Positions 1 through 3,000 of a stretch of DNA of 19,638 bases are shown here, piece by piece; positions within the stretch are counted from its first letter, which is position 1, and every line of letters begins with the position of its first letter. The DNA is from a virus. A program made the position numbers. The stretch lies in UHGV virus genome UHGV-0058544. One strand, 5' to 3'.

Positions 1-3000
1 TTATCAATTTGTTGCAACGAACAGGTCACTATCAGTCAAAATAAAATCATTATTTGATTTCAATTTTGTCCCACTCCCTGCCTCTGTCATCACGATACTG
101 TGATGCCATGGTGTCCGACTTATGCCCGAGAAGATGTTGAGCAAATTTATCGCTTATCTGCTTCTCATAGAGTCTTGCAGACAAACTGCGCAACTCGTGA
201 AAGGTTGGCGGATCCCCTTCGAAGGAAAGACCTGATGCTTTTCGTGCGCGCATAAAATACCTTGATACTGTGCCGGATGAAAGCGGTTCACGACGAGTAG
301 ATGCAATTATGGTTTCTCCGCCAAGAATCTCTTTGCATTTACCAAGTGTTTCCTTCATTGATATCCCGAGAGCATCAACATGCAATGTTGTAGGGATGGC
401 AATTTTTACGCCTGTTTTGCTTTGCTCGACATAAAGATATCCATCTACGATATCAGACCACTTCATTTCGCATAAATCACCAACTCTCTGCCCGGTAACA
501 ACAGCCAGTTCCATTGCAAGTCTGAGCCAACATGGTGATGATTCTGCTGCTTGATAAATTTTCAGGTATTCGTCAGCCGTAAGTCTTGATCTCCTTACCT
601 CTGATTTTGCTGCGCGAGTGGCAGCGACCGGGTTTGTTGTTATATGGCCTTCAGCTATTGCCTCTCGGAATGCATCGCTCAGTGTTGATCTGATTAACTT
701 GGCTGACGCCGCCTTGCCCTCGTCTATGTATCCATTGAGCATTGCTGCAATTTCTTTTGTGGTGATGTCTTCAAGTGGAGCATCAGGCAGACCCCTCCTT
801 ATTGCTTTAATTTTGCTCATGTAATTTATGAGTGTCTTCTGCTTGATTCCTCTGTTGGCGAGGATTTTTTCGTAGCGATCAAGCCATGAATGTAACGTAA
901 CGGAATTATCACTGTTGATTCTCGCTGTCAGAGGCTTGTGTTTGTGTCCTGAAAATAACTCAATGTTGGCCTGTATAGCTTCAGTGATTGCTATCCTCCT
1001 GTCTCGGCCTAATCCAAACTCTTTACCCGTCCTTGGGTCCCTGTAGCAGTAATATCCATTGTTTCTTATATAAAGATTAGGGGGTAAATCCCGGCGCTCA
1101 TGACTTCGCCTTCTTCCCATTTTTGATCCTCTTCAAAAGGCTACCTGTTACTGGTCGATTTAAGTCAACCTTTACCGCTGATTCGTGGAACAGATACTCT
1201 CTTCCATCCTTAACCGGAGGAGGGAATATCCTGCACTCGCGTACCCATCGACGAACTGTTTCAAGGCTTCTTGGGCGTCGCTGGCGTGCGTTCCACTCCT
1301 GAAGTGTCAAGTACATCGCAAAGTCTCCGCAATTACACGCAAGAAAAAGCCGCCATCAGGCGGCTTGGTGTTCTTTCAGTTCTTCAATTCGAATATTGGT
1401 TACGTCTGCATGTGCTATCTGCGCCCATATCATCCAGTGGTCATAGCAGTCATTGATGTTCTCCGCTTCGATAACTCTGTTGAATGGCTCTCCATTCCAT
1501 TCGCCTGTGACCCGGAAGTACATTTATCATCTCCATAAAACAAAACCCGCCGTAGCGAGTTCAGATAAAAGAAATCCCCGCGAGTGCGAGGATTGTTATT
1601 CACCTTTGACGGCAAGTTGAAGGTTAGCCACGACCTTCCTCCTTTGGCTTGTGAATTTGTATCGTCATGCCGCTTTGAGTGGTGACTACAATGACAGAAC
1701 CAGGCTGAAGGCTGTTAAGATTGAATGCTTCGTAAAATGAATCCAATGCCAGTGCTTTTTTATTCTTTCGGTTCCACCAACGCCATCCCTTGCTACAGGC
1801 TACACTGACAATCCACTGTCCACTCCTGTAAGCCATATAAAACCAGATGAGCAAAACCTGAAGGAAGGCTATCCAGTCAATAATCGTATATTTCGCGAAG
1901 GAGTCCATCACTTCACCTCCTGCGGCGGTTCTGGTAGCGGCATCCAGTGGGTTACGAGAACATACTCGACATCACCCTCAGGACTGTCATAGAACAATCC
2001 AGAGTGGGATTCGTAGAATGCGATGTAACGCCACCCTGAATGAGTTTGAACAACAACTTCCTGCCTGTCGTCCGGCATTCGCTCACTACAGCTTATCCAA
2101 CCATCCGGAGTTACCGGAGTTGGTCCATCGAATTCGGGCATGTCAGGACCTTTTCTGATAGCTTTAGCCAGCTCCAGCGGGTCATCGTAAAGCCAGTCGC
2201 CAGTTTGTGGGTGATTTGCTTCTGCAAGCTGCGCAGCCCATTCAAGACCATCTTTTTGACCTTGGAGATAATCAAGCGGCAACTCTTCATGATTACTTGC
2301 AGGTTCTGCACTATCAGCTTCGCGCCGCTTCTGTAGCTCTGCTGCCATCGCTCTCACGACTTCAACTGGTGCCCTTGCAGCAAACTCTATGTTGGTGATC
2401 AGCTCATTAAGATATTGCTCGCTGGGATACTGTTTCTTATCGGTTATAGTGGTCATATCACTCTCCTTTGATGCGAATGCCTGTTGCAATGCTGTTTATG
2501 ATGCTGTCAGTGCATGGGGTAGAAAGCTGGGCATCTCCAGCAATTTTCATGACCTCAACATCTGCATATCGAATACCGAGGTGTATCAGACCGGCTATGC
2601 CTGACTTAAGCCGAGCATTTTCCATAAATAGAACTTTTGCCCGCTGTTTTTCTGCTTCAAGCTCAACGCGCAGCTTCCCTACCGTTAGCGCAATATCCTC
2701 GTTCTCCTGATCGCGGCTTTTGATGTATTGCAGGTTTCTTTCCCGTTCATCCAGCAGTGCCAGCACGGTAGCTGGATTGGCTGCGGCGATGAATTCAGCA
2801 TTGGCCTGCTGCTCCATTTGGAAATCTTCATAGAAACGGCTTTCTGGATGCGCTCCTTCAATTCTGCAAATGGGAATATATCCAGCAACTTCACGATGAA
2901 TTAGTGCATCATCACCATCAAATCGGCCATCTCCATATTCGAGCGACCACTCGCCACACGTTGCTTTCTCTGCCGCCTCACGCAGTGCCTGATAGTCAAT

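What the first reader, a model, noticed from the sequence alone, without database searches (positions are those of the whole stretch)
1..1316. Lambda-type int/xis/att arm joined to a P22/HK620-type virion module
Seen in sequence: Int, Xis and the P' arm are almost identical to phage lambda (from memory of the lambda sequence), whereas the structural genes are P22-like podovirus genes rather than lambda siphovirus genes. Established knowledge: lambdoid phages are modular mosaics, but the integration module normally dictates the chromosomal attachment site (lambda attB lies between gal and bio in E. coli). Inference: this prophage probably occupies the lambda attB site; it could either block lambda integration there or be excised by a superinfecting lambda-type Int/Xis.
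Basis: partly seen in the sequence, partly recalled or inferred. Interest (0 to 1): 0.45.

Follow-up and report, generated by a model that had tools for sequence, protein, structure and literature searches.

The report
Deleted P22-like prophage in lambda attB
The window is a 20-kb broken remnant of a P22-like E. coli prophage that carries phage lambda's integration genes and sits in lambda's chromosomal attachment site; this combination is common and already documented, so the finding is ordinary.

Summary
Observation confirmed. Window 1-1316 (part of the P' arm, int, xis) is 97.9% identical to lambda and 98.8% to phage 434. Int matches lambda Int at 351/356 residues with all catalytic residues kept, and Xis at 70/72. 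The virion genes are P22/HK620/Sf6-type.

The attB inference is also confirmed. The window is 100% identical to a human-gut metagenome E. coli scaffold. There it is flanked by a canonical lambda attL next to ybhC and a canonical attR next to ybhB-bioA.

1. The element is not an intact prophage. A blunt deletion joint at 5827|5828 fuses the last 58 codons of an erf/Rad52 gene to a coat gene lacking about 137 N-terminal codons. The element is 20,242 bp core to core, against 42,137 bp for an intact relative. Immunity, replication, lysis, terminase, portal and scaffold genes are gone.

2. The mosaic is not new. Lederbergvirus phages JEP4 and Huey carry the complete lambda attP-int-xis. E. coli 20AR0300 has a full-length P22-like prophage at the same site with identical int-xis. 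About 37% of complete E. coli genomes carry this module.

Best reading: a recently grounded prophage remnant that can leave only if a lambda-type phage supplies Int and Xis. Low interest.

The parts
1..49 (.). Distal part of the lambda-type P' arm of attL. It holds the H' IHF core element (about 2-14, tatcaatttgttg) and the arm-type Int sites P'1-P'3 (about 23-53). The 15-bp core and the first 24 nt of the P' arm lie just outside the window.
   Evidence: Identical to lambda attP over this stretch (alignment). attL was read in the source scaffold, L006.
50..1120 (-). int, a lambda/434-type tyrosine integrase of 356 aa. The gene is intact.
   Evidence: 351/356 identical to lambda Int and 353/356 to 434 Int, with the RKHRHY residues kept. 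Matches lambda Int structures over its full length. Pfam domains Arm-DNA-bind_1, Phage_int_M and Phage_integrase.
1098..1316 (-). xis, a lambda-type excisionase of 72 aa. The gene is intact.
   Evidence: 70/72 identical to lambda Xis and 71/72 to 434 Xis. phrog_629 excisionase. PF07825 in identical neighbours.
1329..1342 (-). CII-binding site (TTGC-N6-TTGC) of the PI promoter of int. The site is retained, although no cII gene remains in the element.
   Evidence: Position is equivalent to the annotated CII site and PI promoter of phage 434, OL657226. Sequence read.
1347..1366 (.). G+C-rich hairpin with T runs on both sides, upstream of xis on the - strand. It matches the terminator annotated in 434.
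   Evidence: Terminator scan and the 434 annotation.
1356..5651 (-). Early-left (nonessential/recombination) genes. In order: lambda orf55-like, DUF4752, DUF551, two Ead/Ea22 paralogues, a 187-aa protein, DUF2737, abc2 anti-RecBCD, an endonuclease and SSB.
   Evidence: PHROG hits and Pfam labels on the identical scaffold. 100% identical to the undeleted prophage contig L028.
5652..5827 (-). 3' remnant (last ~58 codons) of an Erf/Rad52-family annealing-protein gene. The listed ORF 5652-5975 reads on into antisense coat sequence.
   Evidence: Only residues 49-107 match phrog_1097, at profile positions 193-251 of 251. The intact gene in L028 is 235 aa.
5827..5828 (.). Deletion joint with no microhomology. 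About 22 kb is missing: kil, cIII, N, immunity, replication, nin, Q, lysis, terminase, portal, scaffold and the 5' third of the coat gene.
   Evidence: All database matches break exactly here. Three-way alignment with both parental types. The joint is present in two assemblies.
5828..6689 (+). Coat (gp5) gene lacking about 137 N-terminal codons of 423.
   Evidence: Matches phrog_283 at profile positions 135-384 of 385. Aligns from position 7006 of L024, whose coat gene starts at 6596.
6732..14731 (+). Intact distal virion genes: hkbT-like (61 aa), gp4 adaptor, gp10, an HNH endonuclease (8823-9368), gp26 tail needle, gp14, and ejection proteins gp7, gp20 and gp16.
   Evidence: PHROG hits. Gene sizes are the same as in intact prophages.
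14732..17286 (.). immI-type region. Three small - strand genes of unknown function (14732-15770), mnt/arc-family repressor (15767-16018, -), a small arc gene (about 16124-16264, +) and the ant antirepressor (16363-17286, +).
   Evidence: PHROG hits and Pfam Arc and P22_AR_N/C labels.
17465..19588 (+). Tailspike of 707 aa, with a P22-type head-binding N-terminal domain and a low-GC receptor-binding part.
   Evidence: PHROG hits, PF09008, 98.7% identical to the tailspike of the intact prophage of E. coli 20AR0300, GC 36.6%.

Best explanation
The window is almost the whole of a defective ('grounded') P22-like (Lederbergvirus-type) prophage of E. coli. It is integrated by a lambda/434-type Int at the canonical lambda attB site between ybhC and ybhB-bioA.

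Shown:
- attL and attR are intact, and int and xis are intact.
- One blunt internal deletion of about 22 kb joins the 3' end of the erf/Rad52 gene to codon ~137 of the coat gene.
- The deletion removes PL/N, the c2-cro-cII immunity region, replication, nin/Q, lysis, terminase, portal and scaffold.

Inferred:
- The deletion happened in the prophage state and recently. All surviving genes are intact, and the left 5,827 bp are 100% identical to an undeleted prophage at the same site.
- The element cannot be induced, replicate, lyse the cell or build capsids.
- It probably cannot express int and xis together in cis. PL is gone, PI needs CII and gives Int only, and a terminator lies upstream of xis.
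- It is therefore locked in the chromosome unless a superinfecting or co-resident phage with lambda-type Int and Xis (lambda, 434, HK97, JEP4 and similar) acts on its attL and attR. In that case the 20-kb circle has no origin or pac site and would be lost (curing).
- Meanwhile attB is split into attL and attR. Incoming lambda-type phages must then use these less favourable hybrid sites, homologous recombination with the remnant, or secondary sites.
- The remnant can also donate its tailspike, ejection and immI genes to incoming P22-like phages by homologous recombination.
For: - Identity of int, xis and the P' arm with lambda and 434.
- Window 100% identical to ENA scaffold ERZ28597110 scaffold_113.
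- attL beside ybhC and attR beside ybhB-bioABFCD-uvrB.
- Flanks 98.4-99.7% identical to the E. coli 20AR0300 chromosome.
- Core-to-core length 20,242 bp, against 42,137 bp for the intact P22-like prophage at the same site in E. coli 20AR0300.
- Breakpoint exactly at 5827|5828 in every comparison.
- Both genes at the joint are truncated.
- No microhomology, so there is no shared k-mer that could cause a mis-join.
- The same joint is in the independently assembled Logan contig ERR414307_13261.
- Undeleted counterpart with 5,827/5,827 identical bases, then an intact Rad52-kil-cIII...c2-cro-cII-replication region.
- Surviving virion ORFs have the same lengths as in intact prophages.
- No convincing sigma-70 promoter on the - strand beyond the joint, and a terminator at 1347-1366.
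- The PI CII site is retained.
Against: - Both assemblies that contain the joint probably derive from the same sequencing run, so the deletion is seen in only one sample. No read-level coverage was available.
- The joint was not found in 5,426 complete E. coli genomes, 50,697 phage records, IMG/VR or the GTDB representatives, so it has no independent biological replicate.
- The silence of int/xis is inferred from the missing promoters and was not measured. Read-through transcription from antisense virion DNA cannot be excluded.
- The effects on incoming lambda-type phages rest on classical lambda genetics recalled from my own knowledge. They were not tested here.
Confidence: 0.85

Rival explanations
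1. An intact, inducible P22-like prophage with a lambda integration module.
For: int, xis, attL and attR are intact, and the distal virion genes and tailspike are intact. Intact prophages of this type do exist at the same site.
Against: Only 20.2 kb lies between the att cores. The coat and erf genes are truncated at one joint. No repressor c2, cro, replication, lysis, terminase, portal or scaffold gene appears in the ORF and PHROG survey.
Confidence: 0.02
2. The joint is a metagenome assembly chimera. The real genome would carry a full-length 42-kb prophage, and the assembler skipped the middle.
For: The source is a short-read metagenome scaffold. The joint is unique among all the collections searched. 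The 254-aa truncated coat product is on record on only 3-4 contigs.
Against: The two sides share no sequence at the joint (0-1 nt), so a de Bruijn graph has no repeat to collapse. Two different assemblies, the ENA scaffold and the Logan contig, give the identical joint with 100% identity over 12 kb. Neither assembly yielded a contig with the window's exact tailspike and an intact coat gene.
Confidence: 0.08
3. A phage satellite or other selected mini-element. It would keep int-xis-att plus tail and ejection genes, and would be mobilised and packaged by a helper P22-like or lambda-type phage.
For: It has functional-looking att sites with int and xis. The gene set is compact and all remaining ORFs are intact. 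Other short P22-like remnants that keep int-xis plus immI and a tailspike occupy the same site in other genomes (L007 and L009).
Against: Both ends of the missing segment cut through genes, which is the signature of a random deletion. There is no replication or primase gene, no pac site (it lies in the deleted gene 3 region), and no capsid-size or helper-sensing genes. The left arm is 100% identical to an ordinary undeleted prophage.
Confidence: 0.04

Closest known systems
Site-specific recombination module of phages lambda and 434 (attP, int, xis)
   Same: Int is 98.6% identical to lambda Int and 99.2% to 434 Int. Xis is 97-99% identical. The 15-bp core GCTTTTTTATACTAA is identical, the P' arm is identical apart from one base, the P1/H1/P2 part of the P arm is the same, and the chromosomal site between ybhC and ybhB is the same.
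   Different: The X1-X2-F-H2 part of the P arm is diverged (151/175 identical to lambda over the arm). Here the module is attached to P22-type early-left and virion genes rather than lambda siphovirus genes.
Lederbergvirus (P22-like) phages with a lambda-type integration module: Escherichia phages JEP4 (MT740315) and Huey (PQ850609); also phiHS3
   Same: JEP4 and Huey have P22-like virion genes followed by a tailspike, a complete lambda-type attP, and int/xis 98.4-98.6% identical to the window. Huey is described as a Lederbergvirus (PMC12243541). phiHS3 is a temperate P22-like phage shown experimentally to integrate upstream of ybhC (bioRxiv 10.64898/2026.05.19.726188). Whether phiHS3 carries a lambda-type int was not checked.
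   Different: Those are complete, viable phages of 38-39 kb. The window element lacks about 22 kb and has a different tailspike receptor-binding domain.
Full-length P22-like prophage between ybhB and ybhC of E. coli 20AR0300 (NZ_CP195498.1)
   Same: Window 1-2118 is 100% identical to it and the tailspike region 17411-19638 is 98.7% identical. The attL and attR sites are the same.
   Different: It measures 42,137 bp core to core and has immunity, replication, lysis and head genes. It has a RecT-type instead of an Erf/Rad52-type recombination module and lacks the HNH gene between gp10 and gp26.
Defective ('grounded', cryptic) lambdoid prophages such as DLP12, Rac, Qin and e14 of E. coli K-12 (own knowledge; reviewed in PMC6379469, found but not read)
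   Same: A prophage fixed in the chromosome by an internal deletion of the lethal and essential central genes, while its end modules are retained.
   Different: Here both att sites, int and xis are still intact and no further decay is visible, so the deletion is very recent.

Membership tests
Lambda-type tyrosine integrase (lambda Int) | Three-domain architecture: N-terminal arm-binding, core-binding and catalytic domains | tested here: met
   Pfam PF09003, PF22022/PF02899 and PF00589 on the identical protein. Full-length match (residues 1-356) to PDB 1Z1G, 1Z1B and 5J0N.
Lambda-type tyrosine integrase (lambda Int) | Catalytic residues R212, K235, H308, R311, H333 and Y342 | tested here: met
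   All six are present at the lambda positions.
Lambda-type tyrosine integrase (lambda Int) | Cognate att sites: 15-bp core GCTTTTTTATACTAA with arm-type sites in the P and P' arms | tested here: met
   attL and attR were read in the source scaffold. The reconstructed attP aligns to lambda attP along its whole length.
Lambda-type tyrosine integrase (lambda Int) | Integration at E. coli attB-lambda, between gal (ybhC side) and bio (ybhB-bioA side) | tested here: met
   ybhC...modC lie to the left and ybhB-bioABFCD-uvrB to the right. PGAP gene names are given on the equivalent locus of E. coli 20AR0300.
Lambda-type tyrosine integrase (lambda Int) | Recombination activity (integration; excision with Xis, IHF and Fis) | not testable with these tools
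   Needs an in vivo or in vitro recombination assay.
Lambda Xis excisionase | 72-aa winged-helix Xis homologous to lambda Xis, overlapping the start of int | tested here: met
   70/72 identical to lambda Xis, phrog_629, and a 23-nt overlap with int as in lambda.
P22-like (Lederbergvirus-type) virion module | Tail machine and ejection genes in P22 order: gp4, gp10, gp26, gp14, gp7, gp20, gp16, and a tailspike with a head-binding domain | tested here: met
   PHROG and Pfam hits in P22 order. 94-96% DNA identity to HK620, CUS-3 and Sf6.
P22-like (Lederbergvirus-type) virion module | Head genes: small and large terminase, portal, scaffold and a complete coat gene | tested here: not met
   The coat gene lacks about 137 N-terminal codons. 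No terminase, portal or scaffold ORF is present in the window.
Intact inducible temperate prophage | Immunity (c2/cro/cII), replication and lysis modules | tested here: not met
   None is present among the window's ORFs. They are present in the undeleted relatives L028 and L033.
Phage satellite (PICI / P4-like) | Own replication initiator or primase, a packaging signal, and helper-interference or capsid-redirection genes | tested here: not met
   No such genes appear in the PHROG survey. The borders of the missing segment cut through genes.

The most novel reading that the evidence does not exclude
The remnant may be kept by selection rather than being neutral debris. Independent deletions of P22-like prophages at attB-lambda (this one, and the roughly 10-kb remnants in L007 and L009) all retain int-xis-att together with the immI region (mnt/arc/ant) and a tailspike. 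Such elements might act as chromosomal cassettes in two ways:
1. Their trans-acting Ant antirepressor, or their small membrane proteins at the sieA position, could influence other resident or incoming lambdoid phages.
2. Their tailspike and ejection genes could be picked up by incoming P22-like phages, with lambda-type Int/Xis from a superinfecting phage able to move or cure the whole cassette.
Probability: 0.06. Interest if true: 0.4.

Novelty: already known. Interest (0 to 1): 0.1.

Why it matters
It matters little. It is one more example of two textbook points: lambdoid phages swap integration modules freely, and the integrase module, not the virion type, sets the chromosomal site. It also shows an early stage of prophage decay. 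A single blunt deletion has removed all the lethal and essential central genes while both att sites, int and xis remain untouched. This could serve as a natural substrate for studying curing in trans or marker rescue by lambda-type and P22-type phages. The practical lesson for the scan is that 'lambda int next to P22 tail genes' is a normal state of the ybhC-ybhB locus in E. coli. About 37% of complete genomes carry this int-xis segment.

Tried and rejected
- I searched for the exact deletion joint (26-mer GATTTGTTCGCAGTTAGCCCCAATAC) in IMG/VR and in the GTDB species representatives and found no hits. BLAST of the joint region against 5,426 complete E. coli genomes and against 50,697 phage records found no record spanning it.\n- I looked up the 107-aa fusion ORF across the joint as an exact protein; it is not on record.\n- I considered that the window might be a rotated circular contig, with its end joined to its start. 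I rejected this because the source scaffold continues on both sides into E. coli chromosome.\n- I looked up the HNH endonuclease hoping to reach the Logan contig. The protein is in 3,062 blocks, so the look-up was uninformative for that purpose, although it showed the normal gene order of intact relatives.\n- I considered an assembly artefact through a shared repeat and rejected it, because the two sides share no sequence at the joint.\n- I considered a satellite or PICI-like element and rejected it on gene content and the truncated border genes.\n- The Huey/Dewey/Louie genome announcement was searched for integrase, lambda and attB and mentions none of them.\n- I did not use the metagenome-contig scan, structure prediction or RNA tools, because nothing in the finding required them.

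Full report
**1. The observation**

Window 1-1316 aligns without gaps to lambda J02459 27763-29078 at 97.9% identity. It aligns at 98.8% to phage 434, and at 98.3-98.6% to HK97, HK106, mEp332, JEP4 and Huey.
- int (50-1120, - strand) encodes a 356-aa protein. It differs from lambda Int at five positions (S89N, H164P, A245T, I248V, D260G) and from 434 Int at three positions.
- The catalytic residues R212, K235, H308, R311, H333 and Y342 are all present.
- The protein matches the full-length lambda Int structures over residues 1-356.
- xis (1098-1316, - strand) matches lambda Xis at 70 of 72 residues.
- Bases 1-49 are lambda P'-arm sequence, with the H' core element and the three arm-type Int sites. 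The window begins 24 nt to the right of the 15-bp core, so the core itself is outside it.
- The CII site of PI (1329-1342) and the hairpin terminator (1347-1366) sit where they are annotated in 434.

The + strand genes from 6732 onward are P22-type. They are gp4, gp10, gp26, gp14, gp7, gp20, gp16, an mnt/arc/ant immI region, and a tailspike with a head-binding domain. They are 94-96% identical to HK620, CUS-3 and Sf6.

**2. Where the window comes from, and the att site**

An exact-protein look-up of the tailspike and of Int found ENA metagenome scaffold ERZ28597110 LIJU14-1_SAMEA2338690_METAG-scaffold_113, which is 140,590 bp long.
- The window is 100% identical to it over its whole length. 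Window 1-11120 equals L006 reversed, and window 7465-19638 equals L003. Window base 1 corresponds to record position 70237.
- Left of the window the scaffold reads ...GTTGAAGCCTGCTTTTTTATACTAAGTTGGCcTTATAAAAAAGCATTGC|TTATCAATTTG.... This is the B arm and core of attB-lambda joined to the P' arm, with one mismatch at +14. It is preceded by ybhC (pectinesterase family), ybhJ, ybhI, ybhH, ybhD, pgl, ybhA and modC.
- Right of the window come a 105-aa ORF and then a lambda-type P arm. Next is GCTTTTTTATACTAA, followed by CTTGAGCGAAACGGG, the B' arm. ybhB, bioA, bioB, bioF, bioC, bioD and uvrB follow.
- The flanks are 98.4-99.7% identical to the E. coli 20AR0300 chromosome.

All ten inspected contigs that carry this exact Int have ybhC beside int.

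**3.

Every database match to the window breaks at 5827|5828.
- To the left, on the - strand, are P22/Sf6-type early-left genes. They end with only the last ~58 codons of an Erf/Rad52-family gene (phrog_1097, profile positions 193-251 of 251).
- To the right, on the + strand, is a coat gene that starts at about codon 137 of 423 (phrog_283, profile positions 135-384 of 385).
- A three-way alignment with an undeleted left parent (L028) and an intact coat gene (L024, L016) shows a blunt joint with no microhomology.
- The distance from the attL core to the attR core is 20,242 bp. The intact P22-like prophage at the same site in E. coli 20AR0300 measures 42,137 bp.
- Missing are kil, cIII, N/PL, c2-cro-cII, replication, nin, Q, lysis, both terminase subunits, portal, scaffold and the 5' third of the coat gene.

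The joint is unlikely to be an assembly artefact. The two sides share no k-mer, and the independently assembled Logan contig ERR414307_13261 carries the same joint, with 100% identity over window 2090-14207. Both assemblies probably use the same reads, though, and the joint occurs nowhere else in the collections searched.

The deletion appears recent:
- Every surviving ORF has the same length as in intact relatives.
- The left 5,827 bp are 100% identical to Logan contig SRR29108332_232. That contig is also next to ybhC, and it continues with an intact Rad52-family gene, kil, cIII, the repressor, cro, cII and replication genes.

**4. How it most likely works**

Shown: the att sites, int and xis are intact, and there are no immunity, replication, lysis or head genes.

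Inferred:
- The element cannot be induced or form particles.
- Its int and xis have lost PL. PI remains but needs CII, whose gene is deleted, and in lambda PI yields Int without Xis.
- A terminator precedes xis, and no convincing promoter lies beyond the joint.

The remnant is therefore stuck in the chromosome unless a phage with lambda-type Int and Xis acts on it in trans. Once excised, the 20-kb circle would have neither an origin nor a pac site and would be lost. While it stays, attB is split into attL and attR, which should lower or redirect integration of lambda-type phages. These last points follow from classical lambda genetics (own knowledge) and were not tested. The remnant can also serve as a recombination partner for incoming P22-like phages.

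**5. Comparison with what is known**

A P22-like virion with a lambda integration module is documented.
- JEP4 (classified in Lederbergvirus) and Huey have the complete lambda-type attP (P arm, core, P' arm) followed by int, directly downstream of the tailspike region. Huey is described as a Lederbergvirus in PMC12243541.
- The P22-like phage phiHS3 was shown experimentally to integrate upstream of ybhC (bioRxiv 10.64898/2026.05.19.726188).
- E. coli 20AR0300 carries a full-length P22-like prophage at this site. Its int-xis is 100% identical to the window's and its tailspike is 98.7% identical.
- This int-xis segment occurs in 1,994 of 5,426 complete E. coli genomes.
- Deletion-grounded prophages are equally familiar (own knowledge; a review, PMC6379469, appeared but was not read).

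**6. Verdict**

The attB inference is confirmed. The functional speculation is plausible but untested. The element is a recently deleted, non-viable prophage remnant of an already known mosaic type. Interest is low (0.1).

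Noticed in passing
window 8823-9368 (+): An HNH/NUMOD4 homing-type endonuclease gene lies between gp10 and gp26 and overlaps the start of gp26. The exact protein is listed in 3,062 blocks of the contig collection, always at this position in P22-like prophages. It is absent from the otherwise related 20AR0300 prophage.
   Followed up: partly
window 17901-19588 (+): The receptor-binding part of the tailspike has 36.6% GC, against about 47.6% for the rest of the virion genes. 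None of the best-ranked phage records matches beyond about 17934. It is 98.7% identical to the tailspike of E. coli 20AR0300, and its 90% cluster also holds 766-aa variants and one from Escherichia ruysiae. Its glycan specificity is unknown.
   Followed up: partly
window 14732-15770 (-): Three small genes (107, 111 and 121 aa) occupy the position between gp16 and mnt where P22 has sieA. They give only weak holin, hemolysin or spanin-like PHROG hits. They might be membrane or superinfection-exclusion proteins.
   Followed up: no
L007 and L009, about 2200-11150 (GCA_016854365.1 DADFED010000001.1; ERZ27277667 k141_32430): Other genomes carry an even shorter P22-like remnant at the same attL. It holds int, xis and three early-left genes joined directly to a P63C gene, arc/mnt, ant and an 832-883-aa tailspike with a Peptidase_S74 domain, plus a glycosyltransferase. 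Int-xis is 99.8-99.9% identical to the window's. This indicates repeated, independent decay of P22-like prophages at attB-lambda.
   Followed up: partly
L003 12590-12740 (P arm of attR, just right of the window): The distal half of the P arm (P1, H1, P2) is nearly identical to lambda. The proximal 70 bp (the X2-F-H2 region) is strongly diverged, and it differs again in 434, Huey and JEP4. Identity over 175 bp is 147-154 in all comparisons. The TTGATA element of H2 is kept. This looks like a hypervariable segment inside an otherwise conserved att site.
   Followed up: partly
window 19599-19638, continuing as L003 12135-12452: A 105-aa ORF starts 10 nt after the tailspike stop codon and runs off the window. 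A homologue lies between the tailspike and attP in JEP4 (JEP4_21) and in E. coli 20AR0300. Its function is unknown.
   Followed up: no
window 2458-3680 (-): Two adjacent Ead/Ea22-family paralogues (183 aa and 213-224 aa) and a DUF551 gene form a mosaic patchwork. The segments match different phages at 89-97% identity.
   Followed up: no
protein cluster of window 5925-6689: Other N-terminally shortened P22 coat products of 296-297 aa are on record on many E. coli and Shigella contigs. One sequence is on 48 contigs, including E. coli 907357, and another is in Shigella boydii ATCC 9905. This suggests a different, widespread P22-like remnant with a truncated coat gene, or alternative start calls.
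   Followed up: no
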